Shown here: positions 1 through 56,319 of the stretch, piece by piece
Layout of the letters: each line of letters starts with the position of its first letter
Numbering within the stretch: the stretch's first letter is position 1
DNA from: an uncultured Acidobacteriota bacterium
GTDB lineage: Bacteria; Acidobacteriota; Terriglobia; Acidiferrales; UBA7541
Length of the DNA stretch: 64,000 nt
Assembly (NCBI GenBank): GCA_963836125.1
Contig: CAWIIK010000006.1
Coordinates: forward strand, 31,975 to 95,974
Direction: 5' to 3'
Translations under genes and position numbers: made by a program
Notes under the pieces: generated by a model
What the model saw: the letters and a program-made list of their open reading frames with translations, nothing else
What the model was told of the DNA's origin: nothing
Databases searched by the model: none

Positions 1-1207
1 CCGTGACAGTGCTGTCCTCAGGTTTGTAACCGAGACTCACGTGGTACGGCTCCCAGGGGCTCCTGGCCGTGTCCTCCGCAAACGTGAAGAACGTGTACGA
101 CTCCAGCCTTCCGGTGAGCGCCATGTCATTCACCTGTGGCCAGGTCTGGCCGATGTTGAGCAGAGATAGCCGAAGCGCCCGGCCCACCGTGCTATTCGCT
201 CGCCACCCGTGACCGAGCATGCCGATGCCGGAGTTAAAGCCAAGCTCCTGAGCGATCGGGCCGTCGACAACGACAACAGGCGTGAACGAGCCGGTCGAAG
301 CCTGCACGTGCGTCAAGTCATAGTGCCTATCGGTGAAGCCCTCCATCGCTGCCAGAATCACCGGGAAATACTCCGGCTTGGCGCCGGCCATCACCGCGTT
401 GACCGCTATCTTTTCGACGGTTGCGGTGCCATTTTTCGGCGCCGCCTGCCCAACTACATCTTTCGGCGAACGCGTAGTCCCCGCCAGCATCCCCTTCACC
501 AGCTCGGGCGTCGGCGGAACGGCAGGCAGACCGTCGATCCAGCGGTTGGCGAGGAACAGCTCATTCGTCTTCTCGAACGCGTCGAGGAAATCCTTGCCGG
601 TCACTTGAATGTTGCGATCCTCCCGCTCGATCTGTATGGGCGAGGGCTTCGCCTCCTCCGGGGTCAACGGGCGGGTGAGCGCGTCGATCAGGGAGTCGAA
701 ACACGCGCTGGCAAGGGGTTGCAACTCTTCTTTGCTGGCACGCGCGCGATAGTATTGGTCGGCCGGGAGAGGCAGGACCCGGATTCCGGGCATGCCGCGA
801 TCCTTCGCTGCCGATTCTGCGTCCCCGAGAAATTCGCTGGTGATGAAATAAACGCCGGGCATTCCTGACTTTTCAATTTCAATCGCGTCGTGGGAACCCC
901 ACCACGTGCAGCTCCCTCAATCGCCGACACCGAAAACAAAAAGGTCGCCCTGCTGCTTCACGGTCGGATACCACTTGGGCACGTTCGTGATCGTCTGCGC
1001 CGCCGGCTTCGCGTACATCACGACCGTTGCCTTCGGATACTTCTCTTTCAGCATGTCTGCGAGTACTTCGAGAAACTCGTTCGCGCCGAATTTGCCATTG
1101 TCGACCAGCACGAGTTTCCTTGCCGACAGGTCGGAAACGCGGGGGCTGATGCCCCGTGTGGCCGGCGGAGGAATTTCGCCGCGCGGGTTCATGACCTCAA
1201 GTTGCAT
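1..1207 (-). CDS. UxxC (UGSC-type) selenoprotein fused to a large C-terminal domain, paralog 1. Sec codon TGA at 917-919. The 3' end runs off the window.
   Basis: Listed ORF 917..1222(-) ends ...LFVFGVGD at a TGA. The same frame stays open to position 1 and reads U-GSCTWWGSHDAIEIEKSGMPGVYF...IDGLPAVPPT...VMAGAKPEYFPVILAAM...WEPYHVSLGYKPEDSTVT, colinear with paralogs 2-4. AAGGAGG lies 5 nt before the second ATG (1207), so that start is preferred over 1222. The downstream part is absent from the ORF track because it has no stop inside the window. Confidence 0.75.
889..916 (-). promoter_or_regulatory. Candidate SECIS-like hairpin just 3' of the TGA of paralog 1
   Basis: The minus-strand RNA after UGA is GGGAGCUGCACGUGGUGGGGUUCCCACG. 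Two foldings are possible: GGGAGCU/GGUUCCC (7 bp with two G-U pairs) or CGUGG/CCACG (5 bp). Both leave a G/U-rich loop. Folded by eye only. Confidence 0.4.
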
Positions 1208-1324
1208 CTGTGCCTCCTTCATGAAGCTTTCGCGTGGCCAAGTTTACCAAACGCGGCGTGCGCCACTGAGCTCGCCTTACGCCGCCGACTTGGCTCCAAC
1301 CTAGCCTATTCTAATGACCGAGTG

Positions 1325-1338
1325 GTTGTCAAAACAAC
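1325..1338 (-). promoter_or_regulatory. Operator-like 14-mer GTTGTTTTGACAAC (minus-strand reading) containing a TTGACA -35 hexamer that faces paralog 1
   Basis: The plus strand reads GTTGTCAAAACAAC, identical to 7045..7058. It is one of four copies of GTTGTYTTGACAAC in the window. No good -10 element at 17 nt was found for this copy. Confidence 0.5.
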
Positions 1339-1377
1339 CATCTGCTGCACCCTCGCTCCCACCGGCACCTTACTCAT

Positions 1378-1412
1378 GTTGTCTTGACAACTACAGTGCA
1401 GTCTGTTGTACT
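1378..1412 (+). promoter_or_regulatory. Operator-like palindrome GTTGTCTTGACAAC overlapping a candidate sigma70-type promoter for paralog 2
   Basis: The arms GTTGTC/GACAAC are perfect inverted repeats (1378..1391). TTGACA at 1384..1389 is followed by a 17-nt spacer and TGTACT at 1407..1412. The ATG at 1477 is preceded by AGGAG. Confidence 0.5.
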
Positions 1413-1476
1413 TACCGTCGTTTGACAAGAGTTTGGCGAAGCGCTCAAGCTCGGTGAATCTCGCAGGAGTCACGTC

Positions 1477-3246
1477 ATGGCCACGCTGTTGCGTTCGGCG
1501 GTATTAAATCCGGAGGCGTACCGAACCGTCAGAGCCGCCGCCGGGGACGCACCCGGTAAGCCGCCATCATTCGCTTCCCTCGCTCCGCGCCTGGACAACC
1601 TCACGGGCAAGACGATCTACCTCGTCGACACCGGATTTGGAGGAAGCGGCAAATTCCTGGACCAGGCGCAGGCATGGTTTGCCGAGAACATGCCATCGGT
1701 CAAGACCGTGCGCCGGCGGAAGACGGGCAACATCTTTCGCGACGATACAAAGGATCTCTGGGCCGAAATCAAGGAAAACGGCCAAGCCGCGATCTTAGGC
1801 GTCGCGGGTTGACCCGGCTGCGCAGCGGCGGTCGCCGCTTGCTCCCGCACGCTCGAGCAGGAATACGGAATCCCGACAGCGCCCGTCTCGACTTTTGAGT
1901 TTGCTAACGTCGTGGCCGACGATCGCCGCTTTCACGGCGTTCCCCTGCGCTTCATTTACACCCCGCATCCGGTCGTAGGCATGCCTCCTTCCGTTCTTCG
2001 CGGCTATATCGAAGGGAACGATCCGGCAACGCAACAAACCGTCATCGATGAAGTGATCGGGGCCCTCACAAAACCAGTCAGCGAAGACGAATTCACCGGG
2101 GACTTCGCGCCCGTGTCGCGGACGGGCGTCAGGCAAACCGTCCTTGAGCCGGACACGGACGACAACCTGCAGCGGCTTTTTTATGAACGAGGCTGGACCG
2201 ACGGGCTGCCCATCATCCTTCCCACGGAAGAGCGCGTCGCGGAAATGCTTGCGGGCACAAACCGGGCACCGGATGAGGTCGTCACGGAGATCTTCCTGCA
2301 CGACACCCAGGAATACTTGAAGTTCACCGTCGAAATGGTGGCCATCATAGGCGTCATGGCGGGAGCGCGGCCCGAGCACTTGCCCGTCCTTCTGGCCGTT
2401 GCCTCGACCGGGCATCCGTCGATCCCCGGCTCGACGACGCCATTTGCTTGCATGCTCCTCGTCAACGGCCCGATCCGCCATGAGATCGAGATGAATTCTG
2501 GGATTGGAGCTTTCAGTCCTCGCACCCTGGCGAATTCCGTAATCGGGCGCGCATGGACACTCCTGACAATCAACTGGGGTTACATGCGGCTCAGGAAGCA
2601 GTTCTGGACATCGCAAGGGAATCCCATCGGCTACAACAATATGTGTGTCGCAGAAAACGAGGAAAGAAGCGCCTGGGAACCCTTTCACGTGCAGAAAAAG
2701 TTTCGCCCGGAAGAGAGTGTCGTCAGCCTATTTCGCGGGTGGAGTTTCGTCAACAATGTCGTCGGATCGTCTCACCGGTCGGTAGGCAACGACATGTTCC
2801 TGCAGCTGGGAGCTCTGCCGGGCCTGTTTTCGGCAGCGACATTGATACTGGATCCGCTCGTCGCGCGGCACCTCAAGGAAAACGACGGCTTCCAGACCAA
2901 GCTGGATTTCTGCCGCTGGATTTCAGAAAATTTCACAATGCCTGCCGGACAATTCTGGGGCACGGATTTGATTCACATGATGATGGCCCCTCTCGCGGAT
3001 CAGGGTGTTGAACCATATGCGTCGTGGAAGAAGCTCCCCGAGGACACGCTGATCAGGCCGTACGACAAGCCCCCAAACATCAATATCGTCGTCGTGGGTG
3101 GCGAAACAAGTCCCATGTGGAAAGTCTCGGATTTCGCTTACGCCGTGAGCGCTTCGGTGGACAAGTGGCGCGCGAAGCCCGCCGCCGACGGCTGTACCGA
3201 TGGAAGCTGCGGCCTTCCCGATGAGCCGAGCAACGGAACCAGCTGA
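1477..3246 (+). CDS. UxxC selenoprotein fused to a large C-terminal domain, paralog 2. Sec codon TGA at 1810-1812, predicted residue 112 of 589.
   Basis: ORFs 1477..1812 and 1912..3246 are in the same frame (offset 435 nt) with a single TGA between them. The reading is ...AAILGVAG-U-PGCAAAVAACSRTLEQEYGIPTAPVSTFEFANVV-ADDRRFHGVPLRF... The segment between the TGA and the next start codon is conserved with paralog 4. Confidence 0.8.
1822..1842 (+). promoter_or_regulatory. Candidate SECIS-like hairpin 3' of the TGA of paralog 2
   Basis: GCAGCGGC-GGUC-GCCGCUUGC forms a stem of 6 contiguous pairs with a GGUC apical loop, starting 10 nt after the UGA. From memory, the E. coli fdhF SECIS also has a GGUC-containing apical loop. 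Confidence 0.5.
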
Positions 3247-3294
3247 CACCCGGAGACCCGTTCACAGACGAGACAGGAATCGAGGAGGCGGATC

Positions 3295-5088
3295 ATGGAT
3301 CGAAGAAAAATGTTGGCGTTGTTGGGAGCCGGCCCGGCTCTCGTGGCCGGTCGCTCGTCTTTTGCCCGGACCGCCGCGACAACAACCCCGCCCACTGCGC
3401 CGGGATCCGCGAGCTGTAGCGCGGACAACAGCGCGGTCACCGTCCTGAACCCTGCCATCGCCACCCGGCTTGCGGATCGCGTGCCTCTTGCGCCCCGCCT
3501 GGATTCCTTGGACGGCAAAACGATTTACCTTGTGGACTTCGACTGGGGAGGCATGGGGCAGAACGACACCATTCAACAGGAAATGCAAGCATGGTTTGCC
3601 CAGCATATGCCCGGCGTAAAAACGATCATCAAGGTCAAGGGCGGCAACTTTGTTACCGACGATCCCGGGCTGTGGAAGGAGATCGCCGCGAACCATGGCG
3701 ACGGAGTCATTATCGGCGTAGCTGGTTGACACGGCTGCGTCGGGGCCGTGAGCCTCGAAGCTGGAGAAATCGAGCGGAAATACGGCATTCCCACCGTTGC
3801 CGTCGCCGGTAGGAATGTCGTGTCGTTCGGCATTCACGCGAATTTCAAATACAACACCGGTATGCCTCTTCGGTTTGTCGGCTTCCCGTTCCCCTTTTCG
3901 GGCCAGCCGCAGTCGGTGATCCGGCAATACATCGAGGGGAAAGACAGCATAAGTGGCAAGCCTCTGATGCAAGCGATCGTGGATGGTCTCACGAAGCCGC
4001 TCACCGCGAATGAGGAATTGTCGGGCACCGCTCCTGATGCTCCGCCCCCGGAACCAAGACTGCTCGCCGCCGATACGCGGGACAATCTGCAGCAGCTGTT
4101 CCGTGACAAAGGATGGACGGACTACAACCCGGTGATCCTACCGACGCCCGAAAAAGTCGCCGCGATGCTCAAGGGCACCAGTCATTCGCCGGATGAGATC
4201 GTCAAAAGCGCCGCAGGAACCTTTGGGTCGCGCCGCCCATTTACAGTCGAGAAGGTGGCTACGATTGCGGTAATGGCGGGCGCCAAGCCTGAGTATTTGC
4301 CCGTGATCCTCGCCCTATCCACCAAGGTGCCGTATCAGGATTCTACGACTTCCATAGCGAACATGGTGGTGGTGAGCGGGCCAATACGCAAGAAGATTGG
4401 GATGAATTCGGGTCTTGGCGCCTTGGGTCCGGACAATGAAGCAAATGCCGTCATTGGCCGGGCCATGACGCTCATTCACAAGGTGATCCAGGGATACGTG
4501 GAGGGCGTGACCGGCTTTGCTTCGCTGAGCAACCCGCTGCGATACGACAATCTTTGCTTCGCCGAAGACGAGGAATCTCTCCCGGAAGGCTGGCTGCCTC
4601 TTCACGTGCAACTGGGCCACAAGCCGACCGATAGCGTCGTAACCATCTTCACCGGCTGGAATTTCATTAATAGCTCAGGCTGGGTCGAACAGCACTACGC
4701 CCCTCAATTCCTGATGCGCGACTACATGTCGTCGCTGTCCGGCATGAGCGCCACACTGATCATGGATCCCACGGTCGCGGAGCTGCTCAGTGGCGTGCAG
4801 GGCTTCAAGACAAAGGCAGATCTCGGCGCTTGGCTGTCGCAGAACGTCGAAAAAACCGCCGAATCCTACTGGGGCAATGCAATCGTGTCGAGCATGCTCG
4901 CGCCGCTGGCCCGCCAGGGTCTCAAGCCGTACGCAGACTGGTTGGATCTTCCTGGCAAGAGCTTAATCAAGCCGTTCGCCAACCCGAATGGTATCCGTGC
5001 GATCGTGGCCGGAGGGAAAACGGCGAGCGTTTGGTTCGCAACCGATTTCATGCCCGACAGAGGCACGTGGATCGACGAGTGGACCTGA
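3295..5088 (+). CDS. UxxC selenoprotein fused to a large C-terminal domain, paralog 3, with a Tat-like signal peptide. Sec codon TGA at 3727-3729, predicted residue 145 of 597.
   Basis: ORFs 3295..3729 and 3748..5088 are in the same frame (offset 453 nt). The reading is ...GVIIGVAG-U-HGCVGAVSLEAGEIERKYGIPTVAVAG... The N-terminus is MDRRKMLALLGAGPALVAGRSSFA. GAGGAGG precedes the ATG. Confidence 0.8.
3730..3750 (+). promoter_or_regulatory. Candidate SECIS-like hairpin 3' of the TGA of paralog 3
   Basis: CACGGC-UGCGUCGGG-GCCGUG forms a 6-bp perfect stem that begins directly after the UGA. Confidence 0.45.
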
Positions 5089-5132
5089 CGCGAGGCCAGA
5101 TCGTCGCTCGCCTTCCACCACGGCGCAATCTC

Positions 5133-6989
5133 TTAGTTCGAAACCGTTGCTTTTTGTGCCGGCGCGAACTCCGGTTCGGCGCTCGGCGCGGCTTCCGGGA
5201 TGCCGCAGGTGCCATCTTTGCAGGTCAGCGGCACTGGCATCCGAAGCGGTCGCGCGTCCCGGCGAATTCCGCACTTCGGCCGCCACGTATCAATCGAAAC
5301 GCTTCGGGTATATGTGAAATCCGTGGTGATCCACATCGGGTTCGTCTCGCCGCCGACAACTAAAATATTGAGGTCGTCGGGCGAGCGGCGTGGAGTGATC
5401 GGCTCGTCCTTGGGAAGCTTGGACCAGGAGGCAAACGGCTCCATCCCTTGTTCGGCCAGTCGCGCGGCAAAGCCCGATTGCATCTGGCCTTCCCAGAAAT
5501 GCCCGGCAGGAACTTTTGAATTTTTGACGATCCATCGGCAGGCATCCTGCTTGGTCTTGAAACCTTCCGTTCGCAGGTTCTTGGCCACTAGCGGATCCAC
5601 GACAAATGTAATGCTGGTCCCCATCGACCCAAACGTGGCGATGACGTGAGCCATCTCCTTCGCCGGACCGAGCCCAAAGTTAAGCAGATTCCATCCGCGG
5701 AACAGGCTCACCACACTTTCGTCCGGGCGGAAGCCTTTCTGCACATGGAACGGCTCGAAGGCGCTCAACTCCTCGTTCTCGCCGAAGCACATGTTGTTGT
5801 AATTCAAGTTGTGGCCAAACGTCGCCATGAAGTTTTCGCCCGCACGCGCGTCCCCGAAGTTGATGCTCATCAGCGTCCAAGCCCTGCCGATCACCGAATT
5901 CGCGAGATTGAATGGACTGAGTGCAGCCGTGCCGCAATTCATGCCGATCTCATTGCGCATGGGCCCGTTCACAACCATCATGCGGCCCCACGAGGTTGTC
6001 GAGCTCGGCATCGACGGTTCCTGCGAGGCGGCAAGCGCGAGGATCACCGGAAAGTGTTCCGGCCGCGCTCCCGCCATCACGGCGATCGCGGCCACTTTTT
6101 CGATGGTGTACTCCGTCTTTTCCTGATGCGTGGTAATCAACATCCGTCCGACGATCTCGTCGCGATCGTGATCCGTTCCGGTCAGCATTTCGGCCACGCG
6201 TTCCTCCGTGGGAAGCACGATCGGCAAACCGTCCGTCCATCCGTTTTCGACGAATTGGCGATAGAGATTTTCAGCGCGGTCGGCCGAAAGCAAGCGCGGT
6301 CGCCGCGGCTTCCGAGCAATCGTGGGATGCTTCTCTGTTTCGGTCAGCGGCTGCGTGAGCGCCTCGATCACTTCCTGCAGCAAAGGCTGTGACGTGATGG
6401 GATCGCTTCCCTCAACGTACCGTCGCAGCACGTCTCGCGGCATCCCCATCACCGGATACGGAGAGAACCCAAAGCGCAAAGGTGTCCCGCGAGCCCGCGC
6501 ATCGCGTTCCACGAAATCGGCAAATCGGGCGGTCACGAGGGGCGCTGTGGGAATCCCATATTCGTCTTCGAGAGTTCTCGAATAATCGGCGACACTCGCC
6601 GAGCAGGCCTCTCAACCACCCACACCCAAAATGACCGCGTCGCCGCCGCCCGATTTAATTTCGGCCCAGAGTTCGGGGTCGTCGGTGAACATCGTGCCTT
6701 TTTTATGCCGCAGCACCGTCTTCACGCTCGGCATGTTACGGCAAAACCAGTCCTGCACTTCCCGCATGAACTCGATGCTGCCCGCAAATCCCGTCTCGAC
6801 TAGATAGAGAGTCTTGCCTTCCAAAGTGCCAAGGCGCGGCGCCAGGGACATGCTTTTGAGATCGCCGCTCGGTTGGGCAACGGGGTCTAAAATGTCCCCG
6901 GGCTTCGACTGTGCGTCAAGACGGCGCCCAAAGATGCCGGAAGGCTGCCCGTGCGGATCCAACACCGTCAATTTGCCGCTCTGCTCCAT
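5133..6989 (-). CDS. UxxC selenoprotein fused to a large C-terminal domain, paralog 4. Sec codon TGA at 6612-6614, predicted residue 126 of 618.
   Basis: ORFs 6612..6989(-) and 5133..6536(-) are in the same frame (offset 453 nt). The reading is ...AVILGVGG-U-EACSASVADYSRTLEDEYGIPTAPLVTARFADF... GAGGAGG precedes the ATG. Confidence 0.8.
6587..6601 (-). promoter_or_regulatory. Candidate SECIS-like hairpin 3' of the TGA of paralog 4
   Basis: The minus-strand RNA CGGCGA-GUG-UCGCCG forms a 6-bp perfect stem starting 10 nt after the UGA. It could breathe to 5 bp with an AGUGU loop. Confidence 0.45.
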
Positions 6990-7023
6990 ATGAGTCCTCC
7001 TCTATCTAGCCGCGTCGCGCATA

Positions 7024-7058
7024 AGTTTAATCGTTCTTCATTTAGTTGTCAAAACAAC
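7024..7058 (-). promoter_or_regulatory. Operator-like 14-mer GTTGTTTTGACAAC overlapping a candidate promoter for paralog 4
   Basis: On the minus strand, TTGACA (7052..7047) is followed by a 17-nt spacer and TAAACT (7029..7024). This lies about 30 nt upstream of the RBS and ATG at 6989. The 14-mer at 7045..7058 is identical to 1325..1338. Confidence 0.55.
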
Positions 7059-7163
7059 CTTCTGCCATTCGACCCGGGGACGCGTGCGCGAAGTCCCTGG
7101 CGACTTAGTCAGGCAGCGAGCGTTTCGCATCTGCGTTATGGTTCCGCGTGCAATCAGGAACGT

Positions 7164-7739
7164 CTAACGGCGGCGGGCGGTACGATGCTTCTGTTGGATC
7201 GCAAGCTGAAACATTTCTTCCGCTCGGGCAGAAAGCAAGTCGAGTACTCGTTCCACGTCGCGAGCCCGTTGTCCCTGCAACAACTGGCGCTGATACTCCT
7301 CCGCGACTGGCGCGATCTTGCGCAAGAGCGCCTCACCCTTCTTCGTCAATGAGAGTAACGAAGCTCGGCTATCGGATGGATGCGACGTCCTCTGGATCAA
7401 TTTGCGGCGCAGCAAGCCCCTCAGCGAGCGGCTGATCCAGGCTTTGTCGACGTGCGTTCTGCGGCTCACTTCATTCACTGAGATGGGCTGATAGGCGCCC
7501 AGCATCACCAGGATCCGCAAATCCGTCGGCTTCACGCCGTAGCGATCTTTGAACGTGAGCGTGCCGATGCGAAGAATCAGTTCCGAGAGACGGACAATGC
7601 GCACGGAAACCAGCCGGATGAGCGTGTCGATATGGGGAGCGTGTTCCTGCCGGTGTCTCGGCTTCAACGGACTCGTTCGCCCGCTTCGGCCAGCTTCAAG
7701 GACCTTGGGATTGGCGGTCTGCGGTTCGCCAACGCTCAT
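7164..7739 (-). CDS. MarR-family transcriptional regulator
   Basis: The winged-helix core reads ...KPTDLRILVMLGAYQPISVNEVSRRTHVDKAWISRSLRGLLRRKLIQRTSHPSDSRASLLSLTKKGEAL... The start is taken at the internal ATG (MSVGEPQ), because the upstream part of the listed ORF is not protein-like. The predicted protein contains no cysteine. Confidence 0.85.
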   Translation of the reverse strand: MSVGEPQTANPKVLEAGRSGRTSPLKPRHRQEHAPHIDTLIRLVSVRIVRLSELILRIGTLTFKDRYGVKPTDLRILVMLGAYQPISVNEVSRRTHVDKAWISRSLRGLLRRKLIQRTSHPSDSRASLLSLTKKGEALLRKIAPVAEEYQRQLLQGQRARDVERVLDLLSARAEEMFQLAIQQKHRTARRR

Positions 7740-7776
7740 CGATGTTTCTCTCCCGAATGCGTCGATGCGAGCATAT

Positions 7777-7811
7777 GGTGTCTTGACAACAATAAGGTAC
7801 ACGAGTATATA
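7777..7811 (+). promoter_or_regulatory. Operator-like 14-mer GGTGTCTTGACAAC overlapping a near-consensus promoter for the PQQ dehydrogenase gene. It also lies in the marR upstream region.
   Basis: TTGACA at 7783..7788 is followed by a 17-nt spacer and TATATA at 7806..7811. The site has one mismatch to the palindrome at 1378..1391. It sits 38-51 nt upstream of the divergent marR ATG at 7739. Confidence 0.6.
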
Positions 7812-7889
7812 GCAGATCGGCTCGAGAATGCACGTCCTGAGAGAAGATTTCATGCGAAGAGCTGACCGCGCTATCGGAAAGAAGGAGTG

Positions 7890-9974
7890 ATGAATAGACG
7901 GCAAATATCGGCGACTGAGTTGAGGGCTCCAGCCCGAGGAAATGGGTCAACGAAGCGCATTTTCGCCTTCGTCCTGACCATCGTTGCGGCCGCAAGCATT
8001 ACTCTTGCCGCAGAGTCCGGCACCAACGAGTGGTCCACCGTGAACGGCACCGGCAACATGCGCTATTCCTCCCTCGCGCAGATCAACGCCGGGAACGTGG
8101 CGAAGATGGGAGCGGCGTGGGTGGTGGACGGGATCGAGCCGATGCCTTCAAATCGCGCCACGCCGGTAATCGACGCCGGTTTGATGTTCTTGACAGCGCC
8201 GCCTTACGTGTACGCGGTGGACATCAACACCGGGAAGATCGCCTGGAGCTATAAGGCTGACGCACCAACTGCGCACGGAGGCGTGGCGGTCGGCGATGGG
8301 CTTGTTTTCGTAGGTATTTGGAACCCCGCCAGAACGACCCTGATCGCGCTACGAGAGAAAACGGGGGAGCTTGCGTGGAAATCTTCTCTGGTGCCCTCGT
8401 CCGGCGAACCAACCGGCGGCGCTTCGGGTGCCCCCTTGTTCGCCGACGGAGTGGTATCGATCGGCACAAACGGGGATTACGGATATCGGGGCCAGATCGT
8501 AGCCTTTGATGCCAAGACCGGGAAGGAAGCCTGGCGGTTTTACGTGGTGCCGTCGCCGGGAGAGCCGGGGTCCAACACGTGGCCGAAGAACAATGACGCG
8601 TGGTTGCACGGCGGCGGCGCCGTCTGGCTGGATGGCGTTTACGATCCGGAATTGGGCCTGGAGTTTTACGTCACGGGAAACGCTGTCCCGCAATATGGCG
8701 GCGAATACCGGCCAGGCGACAATCTGTACACCGATTGCGTGATCGCTCTCGACAACCAGACCGGCAAGCTGCGCTGGTATTATCAGGTGGTCCACCACGA
8801 CATATGGGAAGCCGATATCGCTGAAGCGCCGGTTCTCTTCGATGCCGAAGTGGACGGCCACGTCCGCAAGGCGATTGCAGCCATGCGCACGGACGGATAC
8901 CTGTTCATGTTCGATCGCGCGACCGGTAAGCCACTCGATCCCATGGAAGAGCGGAGCGTGCAGCAAGACGCGTATCAGAAAACAGCGAAAACACAGCCCT
9001 ATCCCGTCGGCGCCGAACCCGTCCTGCCAGACTGCGATTACTGGAAAACGCAGGCTATACCCGCGGGTTTTGATTTGGGCTGTTTCTTCACGCCCGCGGC
9101 TGTCGATAAGCCGAATCTGCTTGTCCCGGTTTACGGCATGCGCGCCACGCCGATGGCATTCGATCCGCAAACGCACTTTTTCTATGCCACCGGAAATGCC
9201 GGATTGCAGTGGTTCCGGCGAACGAAAGATCCGGACTTTTTCAGCCTGGGCTTCAGCAATCGTGTACCAGGGCTGGGCAAATTGGGCTACGGCGTACTGG
9301 CCGCGATCGATAGCCGCACCGACAAGATCGTCTGGAAAAACGAAATCCACGATGGGAGGCCCAGCGGCGCCCTGGCGACCGCAGGAGGCCTGGTGTTTCA
9401 GATGGCTGGAGACGGCAATCTCCAAGCGTACGACGCCAAGGGTGGCTCTCTGCTGTGGCAGTTTCAGACCGGCTCGCCCGTCGGCGGTCCGCCGATCGCT
9501 TTCGAGAATCGTGGCGAGGAATACATTGCTAGCGTCGTGGGTGGCGCCGTCTGGGCCTTCACGCTCGGTGGAACGATTCCACAGCGCTCGGCGCTGCCCA
9601 TTCACCCGCAAGAAGATTTTTCAGGGCCAATTACTGATACGGCGAGCATCGAAACTGCGACTCTCGTGCGAGATATGGGCCTCACGGGCGCGCATTTCAT
9701 CGCCGACGAGTACGAGTTCAATCCCTACCGCGCTCGAGTTACGGTCGGCACGCGCGTCTCCTGGCGGAACAATGGCGTGATGGATCACACCATTGTGGCC
9801 GTGGATGACTCTTGGACAACCGGTACGCTCGACCCTCTCGACATCGGCACGGTCGTCTTCGACAAACCGGGGACGTATGTCTACCACTGTAAGGAGTACC
9901 CGTGGGACTACGGCGAAATCATCGTCGTACCCGCGGAGGCACAGAGCCAACCGGCCGGCCAACAGGATCCATAG
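7890..9974 (+). CDS. PQQ-dependent dehydrogenase (methanol/ethanol family beta-propeller) with a C-terminal cupredoxin-like domain
   Basis: Family-typical stretches are NMRYSSLAQINAGNVAKMGAAWV, ATPVIDAGLMFLTAPPYVYAVDINTGKIAWSYK and DNLYTDCVIALDNQTGKLRWYYQVVHHDIWE. The C-terminal ~100 aa read ...RVSWRNNGVMDHTIVAV...GTYVYHCKEYPWDYGEIIVV. AAGGAG lies 5 nt before the ATG at 7890, while the listed ORF starts at the GTG at 7887. Confidence 0.85.
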   Translation: MNRRQISATELRAPARGNGSTKRIFAFVLTIVAAASITLAAESGTNEWSTVNGTGNMRYSSLAQINAGNVAKMGAAWVVDGIEPMPSNRATPVIDAGLMFLTAPPYVYAVDINTGKIAWSYKADAPTAHGGVAVGDGLVFVGIWNPARTTLIALREKTGELAWKSSLVPSSGEPTGGASGAPLFADGVVSIGTNGDYGYRGQIVAFDAKTGKEAWRFYVVPSPGEPGSNTWPKNNDAWLHGGGAVWLDGVYDPELGLEFYVTGNAVPQYGGEYRPGDNLYTDCVIALDNQTGKLRWYYQVVHHDIWEADIAEAPVLFDAEVDGHVRKAIAAMRTDGYLFMFDRATGKPLDPMEERSVQQDAYQKTAKTQPYPVGAEPVLPDCDYWKTQAIPAGFDLGCFFTPAAVDKPNLLVPVYGMRATPMAFDPQTHFFYATGNAGLQWFRRTKDPDFFSLGFSNRVPGLGKLGYGVLAAIDSRTDKIVWKNEIHDGRPSGALATAGGLVFQMAGDGNLQAYDAKGGSLLWQFQTGSPVGGPPIAFENRGEEYIASVVGGAVWAFTLGGTIPQRSALPIHPQEDFSGPITDTASIETATLVRDMGLTGAHFIADEYEFNPYRARVTVGTRVSWRNNGVMDHTIVAVDDSWTTGTLDPLDIGTVVFDKPGTYVYHCKEYPWDYGEIIVVPAEAQSQPAGQQDP

Positions 9975-54447: not shown

Positions 54448-56319
54448 ATGCAATTCGCCGTGAGAATGAATCGAGCCGGCTTCGCTTCGCTGCTTTTGCT
54501 GGCGCCAGCGATTCTGTGCGCTGCGCCGCGCACGTCGGCGCAGGCGACGCCTGACGGCGCTGCGCTCTTCCGGCAGCACTGCGCCGCGTGCCACGCCGGC
54601 GCGGCCGCGGCCACCAGCCGAGCGCCCACGCGCGCCGTGCTTGCCGAGAAAACGCAGCAGGAAATTTTGCAGACGCTCGAATCCGGCGCGATGGTGATCT
54701 ACGGCAATCAAATGAACGAAGCCGAACGCCGCGCCGTCGCCGCCTTCCTCAGCTCGAAACTCGGCGAGGACGTTTCGCGCGCCAACCTCTGCGCCGGCGT
54801 GCCGCCCATCACGCCCGCGGGCCTCGCGAATCCGCACAACTGGAACGGCTGGGGCGTCGACCTCGTGAATTCGCGCTACCAGCCGCATACGAGCCTCGAT
54901 CCCGAAAACGTCGCGCACATGAAATTGAAATGGGCGTTCGGCATTCCCAACGCAAGCTCGGCGCTCGGCCAGCCGACCATCGTCTCCGGCCGCCTCTTCG
55001 TCGGCTCGGGCGACGGCACCGTCTACGCGCTTGACGCCTCGACCGGGTGCACGATCTGGGCGTTCAAAGCCGATACGACCGTGCGCGATGCGATTACCGT
55101 CGCGCCGGGAGCGAAGGGCCGCGCCCGCGCGTATTTCGGCGACAGCGAAGCCAATCTCTACGCGCTCGATGCCTCCGACGGCAAGCTCATTTGGAAAATA
55201 AAAGTCGATCCGCATCCCACCGCCCGGATCACCGGCGCGCCGCAGCTTTACGACGGCCGCCTCTACGTGCCGCTCACCGGAAACGAGGAACTCACGGGCG
55301 GCGACCCGGCTTATCCGTGCTGCACGTTTCGCGGCAACATCACCGCCGTTGACGCGCGCAGCGGCAAAGTTATCTGGAAGGCTTACGGCATCGCCAAAAC
55401 GCCCGGCCCTTCCGCGCCCGGCACGAGCCACGCAAAATTCAGCCCGGCGGGCGGCGCGATGTGGAGCGCTCCCACGATCGATGTAAAACTCGGCAGGCTC
55501 TACACCGGCACCGGCGACGCCTACGTCGATCCCGCGGCCGAGGGCACCGACGCGATCGTCGCTTTCGATCTCGCGAGCGGGAAGCGCCTCTGGCTGCAGC
55601 AGAAAACCTCCGGCGACGTTTTCAATTTTGGCTGCTTCCAGGCGCATCCGATCAACTGCCCGCCGAAAGTCGGCCCCGATTTCGATTTCGGTTCGTCGGT
55701 AATTTTGCAGAACCTCGGCGACGGCCATCGCGTCTTGCTGGCGGGCCAGAAAAGCGGCGTGCTCTTCGCGCTCGATCCCGATGATGGCGGCAAAGAACTC
55801 TGGCATATCCGCGTCGGCCACGGCGGCGGGCTCGGCGGAATCGAGTGGGGCTTCGCCACCGACGGCACAAACGCCTACGTCGCGCTTTCAGATATTCCGT
55901 CCGCGCTCTCGCCGCCGAAGCCCGGCGCGGTCGTGCCGCCGTCGGGCGGTCTTTTCGCGATCGACATCCGCACGGGCAAACTCGTCTGGAAAACGATGCC
56001 GCCCAAGCCGGCATGCGAAGGACAGCCCGGATGCAGCGCGGGCCAGCTCGCCGCGGTTACCGTTGTTCCCGGCGTCGTCTTTTCCGGCTCGATGGATGGC
56101 CACCTCCGCGCGTATTCCGCCAGAGACGGCGCGATCCTGTGGGATTACGACACGCTGCCGAGCGTCCCAACGGTGAATGGTGTGAAAGCGCACGGCGGCT
56201 CGATGAGCGGCAGCGGCCCGACCGTTTCGGGCAACATGGTATTCGTCACCTCCGGCTTCACTGGCACCTCGGGCATGCCCGGCAATCTGCTCCTCGCCTT
56301 CGAAGCACCGGCGAAGTAA
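54448..56319 (+). CDS. PQQ-like beta-propeller protein with an N-terminal c-type cytochrome domain (polyvinyl-alcohol-dehydrogenase-like architecture)
   Basis: It has a signal peptide and a CxxCH haem motif (FRQHCAACHAG). Repeated propeller units follow: GTVYALDASTGCTIWAFK, ANLYALDASDGKLIWKIK, GVLFALDPDDGGKELW and GHLRAYSARDGAILW. Confidence 0.8.
   Translation: MQFAVRMNRAGFASLLLLAPAILCAAPRTSAQATPDGAALFRQHCAACHAGAAAATSRAPTRAVLAEKTQQEILQTLESGAMVIYGNQMNEAERRAVAAFLSSKLGEDVSRANLCAGVPPITPAGLANPHNWNGWGVDLVNSRYQPHTSLDPENVAHMKLKWAFGIPNASSALGQPTIVSGRLFVGSGDGTVYALDASTGCTIWAFKADTTVRDAITVAPGAKGRARAYFGDSEANLYALDASDGKLIWKIKVDPHPTARITGAPQLYDGRLYVPLTGNEELTGGDPAYPCCTFRGNITAVDARSGKVIWKAYGIAKTPGPSAPGTSHAKFSPAGGAMWSAPTIDVKLGRLYTGTGDAYVDPAAEGTDAIVAFDLASGKRLWLQQKTSGDVFNFGCFQAHPINCPPKVGPDFDFGSSVILQNLGDGHRVLLAGQKSGVLFALDPDDGGKELWHIRVGHGGGLGGIEWGFATDGTNAYVALSDIPSALSPPKPGAVVPPSGGLFAIDIRTGKLVWKTMPPKPACEGQPGCSAGQLAAVTVVPGVVFSGSMDGHLRAYSARDGAILWDYDTLPSVPTVNGVKAHGGSMSGSGPTVSGNMVFVTSGFTGTSGMPGNLLLAFEAPAK

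What the first reader, a model, noticed from the sequence alone, without database searches (positions are those of the whole stretch)
1..6989. Four paralogs of a UxxC selenoprotein, each split by the ORF caller at an in-frame TGA
Seen directly: three ORF pairs share a frame and are separated by a single TGA. They are 1477..1812 + 1912..3246 (offset 435 nt), 3295..3729 + 3748..5088 (offset 453 nt), and 6989..6612 + 6536..5133 on the minus strand (offset 453 nt). A fourth ORF (1222..917, minus) stays open after its TGA to the window edge. The TGA always has the same context: GVGD-U-GSC, GVAG-U-PGC, GVAG-U-HGC and GVGG-U-EAC. The stretch between the TGA and the next possible start codon is conserved as protein. 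Paralog 2 reads SRTLEQEYGIPTAPV and paralog 4 reads SRTLEDEYGIPTAPL. Of these 15 codons, 8 differ synonymously, 2 change the amino acid and 5 are identical. That is the signature of translated sequence, not of a spacer. Other genes here end in TGA (for example metG and paralog 2 itself), so TGA is not generally a sense codon in this organism. Established knowledge: Sec in a U-x-x-C redox motif is typical of thiol-oxidoreductase-like selenoproteins, and I recall a 'UGSC' (seleno)protein family name from prokaryotic selenoproteome work and NCBI naming (not checked here). Inference on what is unusual: the ~100-140 aa UGSC-like module is fused to a ~450-470 aa domain that I cannot place in a named family. 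Its motifs are GWTDGLPI(I/V)LPT, VMAGA(R/K)PE(H/Y)(L/F)PV, NGPxRxEIxMNSG, ANxVIGRA and EPFHVQ. The fusion is present as four divergent, clustered copies under apparently common control. Standard annotation would report 7-8 unrelated short and long hypothetical genes here.
Basis: partly seen in the sequence, partly recalled or inferred. Interest (0 to 1): 0.9.

Follow-up and report, generated by a model that had tools for sequence, protein, structure and literature searches.

The report
Four clustered UGSC-family selenoprotein genes
Four neighbouring genes in this soil acidobacterial fragment each encode a ~550-620-residue selenocysteine protein of the already known but functionally unexplained "UGSC" family; ordinary gene callers cut each gene in two at the selenocysteine UGA codon.

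Summary
Four paralogs (30-52% identical) each carry one in-frame TGA in a G-V-G/A-x-U-x-x-C motif.

The TGA encodes selenocysteine. In 76 related genome loci from about 10 phyla, the codon is TGA in 70, TGC in 3 and Leu in 3. In 80 metagenome relatives of paralog 1 it is always TGA. Uninterrupted full-length Cys-containing homologues exist. Every TGA is followed 13-30 nt later by a hairpin, mostly with a GGUC or GUG loop. The hairpin shows compensatory changes, suppresses synonymous variation, and is degraded in the Cys forms.

The N-terminal ~170 residues match Pfam UGSC (PF24696). The family has been known since about 2007, with function unknown. A "UGSC/Unknown_1" fusion was reported in 2008, so this is a new member of a known kind.

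What I add:
- The ~370-residue C-terminal domain matches no Pfam or NCBIfam model. It has no PDB relative by sequence or fold, although the models are confident.
- The four copies belong to four old subfamilies, and one of them is exported.
- Relatives sit next to thioredoxin-reductase-like or short-chain dehydrogenase genes, often among organic-acid genes.

A reductase role is my inference. The Sec machinery could not be checked.

The parts
1..1222 (-). Paralog P1 (GVGD-U-GSC, the canonical UGSC motif), cut by the window edge. In the near-identical contig L081 the gene continues as a 96-aa piece plus a 458-aa piece.
   Evidence: Translation. Pfam UGSC 112 bits over residues 9-183. Complete gene seen in L081. 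80 of 80 metagenome relatives have TGA here.
917..919 (-). Sec codon (TGA) of P1
889..916 (-). SECIS-like hairpin of P1. The minimum-free-energy fold pairs +4..+10 with +22..+28 and has a GUG tip. An alternative 5-bp stem pairs +14..+18 with +27..+31 and puts GGU at +22..+24.
   Evidence: Fold. Synonymous diversity is 0.05 in codons +1..+10 against 0.42 elsewhere in 71 relatives, p=5e-6. The alternative stem is my own reading of the sequence.
1477..3246 (+). Paralog P2 (GVAG-U-PGC), 589 aa including Sec. UGSC domain at about 1573-1989; C-terminal domain at about 2143-3243.
   Evidence: C-domain model has pLDDT 92.
1810..1812 (+). Sec codon (TGA) of P2
   Evidence: All 20 genome loci of the U-PGC class have TGA at this position.
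1824..1839 (+). SECIS-like hairpin of P2: stem +15..+20 with +25..+30, GGUC loop at +21..+24
   Evidence: 81.7% of cells paired, 42 double-change cells, covariation score 0.306 against 0.163 in shuffles, 0 of 500 shuffles as high.
3295..5088 (+). Paralog P3 (GVAG-U-HGC), 597 aa including Sec. The N-terminal Tat-like signal peptide MDRRKMLALLGAGPALVAG lies at about 3295-3369.
   Evidence: All four U-WGC homologues also have signal peptides.
3727..3729 (+). Sec codon (TGA) of P3
3741..3757 (+). SECIS-like hairpin of P3: 6-bp stem +15..+20 with +26..+31, CGUGA loop, the same as in the U-WGC class
   Evidence: folds of W_P3, L040, L044, L050. Pair register is my own reading.
5133..6989 (-). Paralog P4 (GVGG-U-EAC), 618 aa including Sec
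6612..6614 (-). Sec codon (TGA) of P4
   Evidence: 17 genome loci of the U-DGC/EAC class have TGA here.
6586..6602 (-). SECIS-like hairpin of P4: 7-bp stem +13..+19 with +23..+29, GUG loop
   Evidence: 97.5% of cells paired, 3 pairs with compensatory changes, slid controls at most 60% paired.
1223..1476 (.). Divergent intergenic region between P1 and P2 (254 bp), presumed to hold promoters. Not analysed further.
   Evidence: distances.
7164..7904 (-). MarR-family regulator gene, upstream of P4 on the same strand with a 174-nt gap. Context only.
   Evidence: The same arrangement is seen in L081 and L112.

Best explanation
The region holds four intact genes for two-domain selenoproteins of the UGSC family.

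Decoding. In each mRNA a single UGA is decoded as selenocysteine. A short hairpin 13-30 nt downstream (a bacterial SECIS, mostly with a GGUC or GUG tip) would recruit SelB carrying Sec-tRNA(Sec). The hairpin, its covariation and the synonymous constraint on it are shown here. SelB binding is inferred.

Protein. Each product has an N-terminal alpha/beta domain of about 170 residues. Its U-x-x-C motif sits between a beta-strand and the N-terminus of a helix, the usual geometry of a redox-active (seleno)thiol pair. This domain packs against a C-terminal domain of about 370 residues, with nearly invariant Asp, Thr, Asn, Arg and Glu, that has no described relatives. The four copies belong to four old subfamilies: U-GSC, U-PGC, U-H/WGC and U-E/DGC. 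The third subfamily carries a signal peptide and is probably exported.

Most likely mechanism (inferred, about 0.35). The C-terminal domain binds a small polar substrate, probably one bearing a carboxylate. The Sec/Cys pair delivers two electrons or forms a transient Se-C or Se-S intermediate and ends as a selenenylsulfide. The pair is then re-reduced by a thioredoxin-type system. In other members a thioredoxin-reductase-like flavoprotein gene lies directly downstream. This resembles how the substrate-specific selenoprotein B components of glycine and proline reductase work (from memory). The paralogs would then be isoenzymes for different substrates or compartments.

The confidence of 0.9 applies to the identity claim: Sec-decoded, two-domain UGSC-family proteins.
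For: - In-frame read-through gives continuous conserved proteins.
- Pfam UGSC is matched above its cutoff by all four.
- Codon at the U column in genome loci: TGA 70, TGC 3, CTG/CTA 3, across Acidobacteriota, Chloroflexota, Actinomycetota, Thermodesulfobacteriota, Bacillota, Latescibacterota, Binatia, Rokubacteria and Alpha-/Betaproteobacteria.
- 80 of 80 P1-like metagenome loci have TGA.
- Unsplit homologues of 526-667 aa carry CSTC, CPGC or CGSC at the aligned site.
- Hairpin covariation is above both shuffle and slide controls.
- Synonymous variation collapses only in the 30 nt after the UGA.
- Cys forms with the same peptide keep 1-3 of 6 stem pairs, against 4.5-6 in Sec forms.
- TGA is a normal stop elsewhere in the window.
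- The full-length Cys homologue models as one compact unit with pLDDT 94 and pTM 0.93.
- For the mechanism: a TrxB-like gene with its own CxxC lies downstream in 8 of 29 U-STC/U-SSC loci and next to the Cys forms P0132, P0169 and P0222.
- An SDR gene lies nearby in 15 of 36 U-PGC/U-DGC loci.
- Neighbouring genes point to organic acids: TctC receptors, PrpD, PrpF, aconitase and an isocitrate-lyase-like gene.
- GOS counted 255 Sec forms against 21 Cys forms for this family (PMC2398784), so Sec is strongly preferred.
Against: - No selA, selB, selD or tRNA-Sec gene lies in the 64-kb window or in the fetched loci, and the rest of the genome could not be searched.
- No Rfam SECIS family matches.
- None of the four paralogs reaches the NCBIfam UGSC equivalog cutoff (22-90 bits against 125).
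- For the mechanism, no TrxB-like or SDR gene is adjacent to the four genes in this window.
- Many family members have S, T, G, A or L instead of Sec/Cys, so the C-terminal domain can work without the redox pair.
- The neighbourhood associations cover a minority of loci and differ between subfamilies.
Confidence: 0.9

Rival explanations
1. The TGAs are true stops. Each locus would then be two genes, a protein of 96-144 aa and a protein of 444-467 aa, as automatic annotation reports.
For: Public records do call them this way. Bacterial Sec insertion is inefficient (from memory), so some truncated N-terminal product is probably made as well.
Against: The 6-33 codons between the TGA and the next possible start are conserved as protein with mostly synonymous change. 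The UGSC Pfam domain spans the TGA. Cys forms are single uninterrupted ORFs. The hairpin is conserved and covaries.
Confidence: 0.03
2. The UGA is read through or recoded without selenocysteine, for example by near-cognate Trp or Cys insertion, in an organism that lacks Sec machinery.
For: The Sec machinery was not observed, because it could not be searched for.
Against: The downstream hairpin has the position and the G-U-containing apical loop typical of bacterial SECIS elements. The GGUC loop at +21..+24 matches the E. coli fdhF element from my own knowledge. The hairpin is lost where the codon is TGC. The family is an established selenoprotein family with predicted SECIS elements (PMC1976440, PMC2398784). 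TGA is used as a stop in 13 of 28 genes.
Confidence: 0.04
3. The genes are decaying pseudogenes, or the TGAs are assembly errors.
For: None beyond the presence of an internal stop.
Against: The same codon sits at the same column in 150 independent loci. There are no other stops or frameshifts. Purifying selection acts on both sides.
Confidence: 0.01
4. Functional rival. The proteins are real selenoproteins, but the C-terminal domain carries out non-redox chemistry such as hydratase, isomerase or hydrolase activity on an organic acid or amide. The UxxC would then be a regulatory or protective redox switch or a metal/metalloid ligand, not the catalytic centre.
For: Many homologues lack any Cys/Sec at the site yet keep all C-domain motifs. 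The only fold resemblances, all weak, are to class I fumarate hydratase and Toblerone-fold cyclic amide hydrolases. Neighbours include PrpD, PrpF, aconitase and MaoC hydratases/isomerases.
Against: Sec is strongly preferred over Cys in the redox-motif subfamilies (70 to 3; 255 to 21 in GOS), which is typical of catalytic rather than regulatory residues. A dedicated TrxB-like gene lies immediately downstream in several lineages. The fold matches are not significant (TM about 0.2).
Confidence: 0.3

Closest known systems
UGSC-containing selenoprotein family (Zhang & Gladyshev; Pfam PF24696; NCBIfam NF041046)
   Same: Both have the U-x-x-C motif after a G-V-G-x strand. All four paralogs match the Pfam model. 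Sec forms greatly outnumber Cys forms. Both are abundant in non-marine environmental samples. Function is unknown in both cases.
   Different: Only P1 has the literal UGSC tetrapeptide. P2-P4 carry UPGC, UHGC and UEAC and score far below the NCBIfam equivalog cutoff. The literature calls the fold 'likely Trx-like'. The model here shows repeated beta-alpha units, and its weak PDB matches are to flavodoxin/Rossmann-like proteins.
'UGSC/Unknown_1 fusion' of the Global Ocean Sampling selenoproteome (PMC2398784, Fig. S1A)
   Same: [quoted passage not shown]
   Different: I could not verify that Unknown_1 is the C-terminal domain seen here. The figure is held only as an image and the sequence file is truncated. 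GOS reads could cover only a fraction of a 370-residue domain.
Substrate-specific selenoprotein B components of glycine/sarcosine/betaine and D-proline reductases (GrdB, PrdB; Pfam PF07355)
   Same: This is a works-like comparison. Both have a UxxC selenoprotein, multiple substrate-specific paralogs, dependence on a thioredoxin/thioredoxin-reductase system encoded nearby, and carboxylate-bearing substrates. These properties of Grd/Prd are from my own knowledge. PrdB's UxxC motif is listed.
   Different: There is no sequence match to PF07355. No pyruvoyl subunit or GrdA-like partner was seen. The domain architecture is different. This family is not a member of PF07355.
E. coli fdhF-type bacterial SECIS element
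   Same: Both are hairpins starting a few nucleotides after the UGA, with the apical loop about 20 nt downstream and G-U in the loop. GGUC sits at +21..+24 in 42 of 50 class-A sequences. The fdhF comparison is from my own knowledge.
   Different: No Rfam SECIS model matches. Stem length and register differ between the four subfamilies. SelB binding is untested.

Membership tests
Pfam PF24696 (UGSC family) | HMM score above the gathering cutoff of 25 bits | tested here: met
   P1 112.1, P2 61.8, P3 36.5 and P4 66.6 bits with U written as C.
Pfam PF24696 (UGSC family) | Sec or Cys in a U/C-x-x-C motif at the conserved position | tested here: met
   GVGD-U-GSC, GVAG-U-PGC, GVAG-U-HGC and GVGG-U-EAC. 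Aligned with CSTC, CPGC and CGSC in homologues.
NCBIfam NF041046 (UGSC family (seleno)protein, equivalog) | Score at or above the curated cutoff of 125 bits | tested here: not met
   90.4, 50, 21.8 and 44.2 bits. These are relatives of the family, not equivalogs by NCBI's criterion.
Bacterial selenoprotein gene (general criteria) | In-frame UGA conserved among orthologues, with conserved protein on both sides | tested here: met
   70 of 76 genome loci and 80 of 80 metagenome loci.
Bacterial selenoprotein gene (general criteria) | Homologues with Cys aligned to the UGA | tested here: met
   TGC in L064, L067 and L073. At least 9 full-length CxxC proteins.
Bacterial selenoprotein gene (general criteria) | SECIS stem-loop shortly downstream of the UGA with G/U in the apical loop, supported by covariation | tested here: met
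Bacterial selenoprotein gene (general criteria) | selA, selB, selC (tRNA-Sec) and selD present in the same genome | not testable with these tools
   None in the window or the fetched loci.
Bacterial selenoprotein gene (general criteria) | Selenium incorporation shown by 75Se labelling or mass spectrometry | not testable with these tools
   This needs an experiment.
Rfam SECIS families | Covariance-model match | tested here: not met
   No match at gathering score across the window, nor at E<=10 in bases 1-7200.
Thioredoxin-fold oxidoreductases (the literature's suggestion for UGSC) | Thioredoxin-like fold of the U-x-x-C domain | tested here: inconclusive
   The model shows an alternating beta-alpha order (E44-48, H54-68, E74-78, H88-96, E100-106, H111-125, E130-135, H136-148). 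Its weak PDB matches are to Rossmann/flavodoxin-like proteins and none is to a thioredoxin.
GrdB/PrdB selenoprotein B (Pfam PF07355) | HMM match | tested here: not met
   UGSC is the only Pfam family found for the four paralogs at E<=0.01, and the only recurrent one among 100 family members at E<=1.

The most novel reading that the evidence does not exclude
The long-form UGSC proteins would be an undescribed class of selenoenzymes. A selenocysteine-bearing alpha/beta module is re-reduced by a dedicated thioredoxin-reductase-like flavoprotein. It is fused to a catalytic domain with a fold absent from the PDB and reduces or reductively cleaves small organic-acid or amino-acid-derived substrates. 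The four subfamilies in this window, one of them periplasmic, would be substrate- or compartment-specific isoenzymes. That would finally give a function to one of the most abundant environmental selenoprotein families.
Probability: 0.3. Interest if true: 0.7.

Novelty: new member of a known kind. Interest (0 to 1): 0.45.

Why it matters
UGSC proteins are among the most abundant selenoprotein families in environmental metagenomes, and a 2026 review still lists them as functionally uncharacterised. This window, with the comparative data gathered here, shows four things.

1. The usual form is a two-domain protein of about 550-620 residues. Its larger domain has no Pfam model and no solved structural relative, although it defines thousands of sequence clusters.
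2. The family has at least four old Sec-containing subfamilies, which can sit side by side in one genome.
3. One subfamily is exported.
4. Recurrent gene partners (TrxB-like flavoprotein, SDR, tricarboxylate and peptide transporters, organic-acid enzymes) give concrete biochemical hypotheses to test.

There is also a practical point. Public MAG records still split these genes, and some of the C-terminal fragments are labelled 'UGSC family (seleno)protein'.

Tried and rejected
I used the exact post-TGA sequences instead.
- Sequence search of the C-domain against the PDB found nothing. A profile search gave only noise with E>=0.047.
- Foldseek searches of the full-length model and of the C-domain model against the PDB gave no hit with E<=0.001, and all TM-scores were about 0.2. 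I therefore reject any fold assignment.
- Pfam scans of unusually long family members, looking for informative fusions, returned only UGSC, Cu_amine_oxidN1 and a weak pentapeptide-repeat match below its cutoff.
- A Pfam scan of 100 members at E<=1 found no recurrent second family.
- Rfam gave no match at gathering score or at E<=10.
- ARAGORN found no tRNA-Sec in the window or in 60 loci.
- I tried to read GOS Fig. S1A and Dataset S1 to identify 'Unknown_1'. The figure is an image and the file is truncated.
- A search with the N-domain of a Cys form, meant to estimate stand-alone versus fused UGSC proteins, returned only 3 hits.
- The Cys in the 'VMAGC' motif of the C-domain shows no pattern against presence or absence of the U/CxxC motif.
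- The link of P1 to the PEP-utilizer and biotin-carboxylase operon holds only in the closest relatives, so I do not use it for function.
- Promoter and terminator scans were not above chance.
Full report
**Observation**

The ORF list and in-frame translations confirm the finding as written. There are three complete genes. P2 is 1477..3246 on the + strand, P3 is 3295..5088 on the + strand, and P4 is 6989..5133 on the - strand. P1 (1222..<1, - strand) is cut by the window edge. Each contains exactly one internal stop, always TGA, in the contexts GVGD-U-GSC (P1), GVAG-U-PGC (P2), GVAG-U-HGC (P3) and GVGG-U-EAC (P4).

The paralogs are 30-52% identical over their whole length. TGA ends 13 of 28 well-supported genes in the window, including metG, argS, P2 and P3, so it is not a general sense codon. 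A six-frame scan for other TGAs with long open flanks and a CxxU/UxxC context gave nine sites, and only these four lie in real coding frames.

**Family assignment**

With U written as C, the first ~170 residues of all four proteins match Pfam PF24696 'UGSC family' at 36-112 bits against a cutoff of 25. They also hit NCBIfam NF041046 'UGSC family (seleno)protein', but below its equivalog cutoff (22-90 bits against 125).

UGSC-containing proteins have been a recognised selenoprotein family of unknown function since about 2007. They were first noted in Hyphomonas neptunium and in marine metagenomes (PMC1976440). In the Global Ocean Sampling data they were one of the most abundant families, with 255 Sec forms against 21 Cys forms, and they were most frequent in non-marine samples (PMC2398784). 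Reviews from 2022 and 2026 still list the family without a function.

**Is the TGA selenocysteine?**

Three independent lines of evidence say yes.

1. *Conservation of the codon.* A scan of one genome per species found more than 590 relatives. In the best 76 informative loci, from about ten phyla, the codon aligned with U is TGA in 70, TGC in 3 and CTG/CTA in 3. Protein sequence is conserved on both sides. In 80 soil and peat metagenome relatives of P1 it is TGA in all 80.

2. *Uninterrupted homologues.* A profile search of 1.84 billion representative proteins found 5779 family clusters. Among the best 150, about 34 are unsplit proteins of 526-667 aa whose N-terminal part aligns with the UGSC module. 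At the U column they carry Cys (CSTC, CPGC, CGSC) or, in other branches, S/T/G/A. The two halves are therefore one protein.

3. *A SECIS-like hairpin.*
   - Every TGA is followed by a hairpin whose tip lies about 20 nt downstream.
   - For the PGC/STC/SSC classes (50 sequences, including P2), a 6-bp stem closing a GGUC loop is paired in 81.7% of cells. It has 42 double-change cells and a covariation score of 0.306 against 0.163 in shuffles (0 of 500 shuffles as high). Scores when the 3' partner is slid are at most 0.18.
   - For the DGC/EAC class (17 sequences, including P4), a 7-bp stem with a GUG loop is paired in 97.5% of cells and has three compensatory pairs.
   - P3 shares the 6-bp stem and CGUGA loop of the WGC class.
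   - For P1, 71 distinct relatives show synonymous-site diversity of 0.05 in the ten codons after the UGA against 0.42 elsewhere (p=5e-6). That is the signature of an RNA element overlapping the coding sequence.
   - The three Cys-form loci encode nearly the same peptide (STCAPAVA) but keep only 1-3 of the 6 stem pairs and lack the GGUC loop.
   - The position of the hairpin and the G-U in its loop match what I know of the E. coli fdhF SECIS.
   - No Rfam model matches.

What remains untested is the Sec machinery itself. No selA, selB, selD or tRNA-Sec gene lies in the window or in the fetched loci, and the rest of the genome was out of reach.

**Architecture and structure**

A full-length Cys homologue (P0132) modelled with pLDDT 94 and pTM 0.93 as one compact unit. 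The N-terminal module is built of alternating beta-alpha units. The redox motif lies between strand 100-106 and helix 111-125.

The C-terminal domain of the window's own P2 (window 2143-3243) modelled with pLDDT 92 and pTM 0.91. Neither model has a significant match in the PDB:
- The best Foldseek E-values are 4-5e-3, with TM-scores of about 0.2.
- The N-domain hits are to Rossmann/flavodoxin-like proteins.
- The C-domain hits are to class I fumarate hydratase and Toblerone-fold amidohydrolases. All are too weak to use.

Sequence and profile searches of the PDB found nothing either. No Pfam or NCBIfam model covers the C-terminal ~370 residues, even when 100 members were scanned at E<=1. Nearly invariant residues across 100 diverse members include D, T (PPT), T (GT), the VMAG motif, NGP, N and R (ANxxIGR), E (ENE) and PW.

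**The four copies are four old subfamilies**

P2 is 58-62% identical to U-PGC proteins of Dehalococcoidales, but only 52% identical to P4 and 43% to P3. Each paralog falls in a motif class found across phyla: U-GSC, U-PGC, U-H/WGC and U-D/EAC.

All four U-WGC homologues, and P3 itself, start with a signal peptide. In P3 this is the Tat-like MDRRKMLALLGAGPALVAG, so this subfamily is probably exported.

Tandem or clustered copies are common in other genomes, for example L001, L002, L013, L023 and L033. The P1-P2-P3(-P4) arrangement recurs in several close metagenome relatives.

The four genes do not form one operon. P1 and P2 are divergent with 254 bp between them. P2 and P3 are co-directional with a 48-nt gap. 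P3 and P4 are convergent. P4 follows a MarR gene on the same strand. 'Common control' is therefore unproven.

**Clues to function**

- In U-STC/U-SSC loci a thioredoxin-reductase-like flavoprotein gene (Pyr_redox_2, with its own CxxC) is present in 8 of 29 loci, usually as the next gene.
- The same is true for the Cys forms P0132 (flanked on both sides, together with a peptide ABC transporter), P0169 and P0222.
- In U-PGC/U-DGC loci a short-chain dehydrogenase is the recurrent neighbour, in 15 of 36 loci.
- TctC tricarboxylate receptors occur in 5 loci.
- P0222 lies inside an operon with two PrpD-family genes, PrpF, MaoC, an isocitrate-lyase/PEP-mutase-like gene and both aconitase subunits.
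- A near-identical contig shows that P1 is followed, beyond the window's left edge, by a PEP-utilizer/PPDK_N pair and a biotin carboxylase set. This link holds only in the closest relatives.

From this I infer, at about 0.35, a thioredoxin-system-coupled (seleno)thiol reductase acting on small carboxylate-bearing substrates. It would work like selenoprotein B of the glycine and proline reductases without being related to it.

The main functional rival, at about 0.3, is non-redox chemistry in the C-domain with UxxC as an accessory. This rival is supported by the many family members that lack any Cys/Sec at the site.

**Novelty and score**

The selenoprotein family, its UxxC motif, its mis-annotation by gene callers and even a fusion to an unknown domain are already in the literature. 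NCBI already names some fragments 'UGSC family (seleno)protein'. The finding is therefore a new member, or set of members, of a known kind.

The new parts are these:
- The long two-domain form is the rule across about ten phyla.
- The large domain is un-modelled and has no solved structural relative.
- Four Sec subfamilies co-reside in one genome, and one is exported.
- The family has recurrent redox-partner and organic-acid gene contexts.

That makes a long-standing question, what UGSC selenoproteins do, more testable. It does not overturn anything. Interest is 0.45.

Noticed in passing
window 3295-3369 (+); L040, L044, L050, L052 upstream of the match: P3 and all four U-WGC homologues begin with a signal peptide. 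P3 has the Tat-like RRKML motif, and L052 looks lipoprotein-like. This subfamily of the selenoprotein is probably exported, where a cytoplasmic thioredoxin reductase could not serve it.
   Followed up: partly
L081 411-7477 (-), which lies beyond the window's left edge: Downstream of P1 on the same strand lie PEP-utilizers (609 aa), PPDK_N (349 aa), a biotinyl carrier, biotin carboxylase, an HMGL-like/PYC_OADA carboxyltransferase and a HAD hydrolase. This is a phosphorylating and carboxylating gene set, and the first pair resembles phenylphosphate synthase (from memory). It is conserved only in the closest P1 relatives (5 of 34 long loci).
   Followed up: partly
window 7887-9974 (+) and 54448-56319 (+); L090-L169: The window holds two PQQ-dependent dehydrogenase genes, the second with a cytochrome c domain. 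In 27 of 47 long P1-like metagenome loci a PQQ-dehydrogenase-like gene is nearby, often with genes that look like a cytochrome c and a TlpA-like thioredoxin. These neighbour identities were judged from the sequences and were not checked against Pfam.
   Followed up: no
P0039, P0071, P0099 (GenBank MGA9885619.1, HVB87561.1, MEE8413432.1): GenBank MAG records name C-terminal fragments of 443-474 aa, which start after the TGA, 'UGSC family (seleno)protein'. The split annotation persists, and the family name is being propagated to the un-modelled domain.
   Followed up: partly
L071, L072, L078 at the U column; P0125, P0127, P0140 and others: Three genome loci have Leu (CTG/CTA) where others have Sec. 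Many full-length family members have S/T/G/A there and no second Cys. Part of the family has lost, or never had, the redox motif while keeping every C-domain motif.
   Followed up: partly
P0161, P0173, P0183, P0203, P0245 (709-741 aa): These family members match the C-domain profile in two separate stretches and have no Pfam match at all. They may be internal duplications or a different N-terminal partner.
   Followed up: no
JGI 3300075153 contig carrying P0125: Two UGSC-domain genes (564 and 561 aa; P0125 lacks the redox motif, the second was not checked) lie in tandem, directly upstream of a peptide-type ABC transporter (SBP_bac_5 and permease). This suggests a possible hetero-oligomer of paralogs.
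   Followed up: no
window 7052-7024 (-): A sigma-70-like site (TTGACA, 17 nt, TAAACT; 10 of 12 matches) lies in the MarR-P4 intergenic region, about 35 nt upstream of the P4 start. The number of such sites in the region is not above chance.
   Followed up: no
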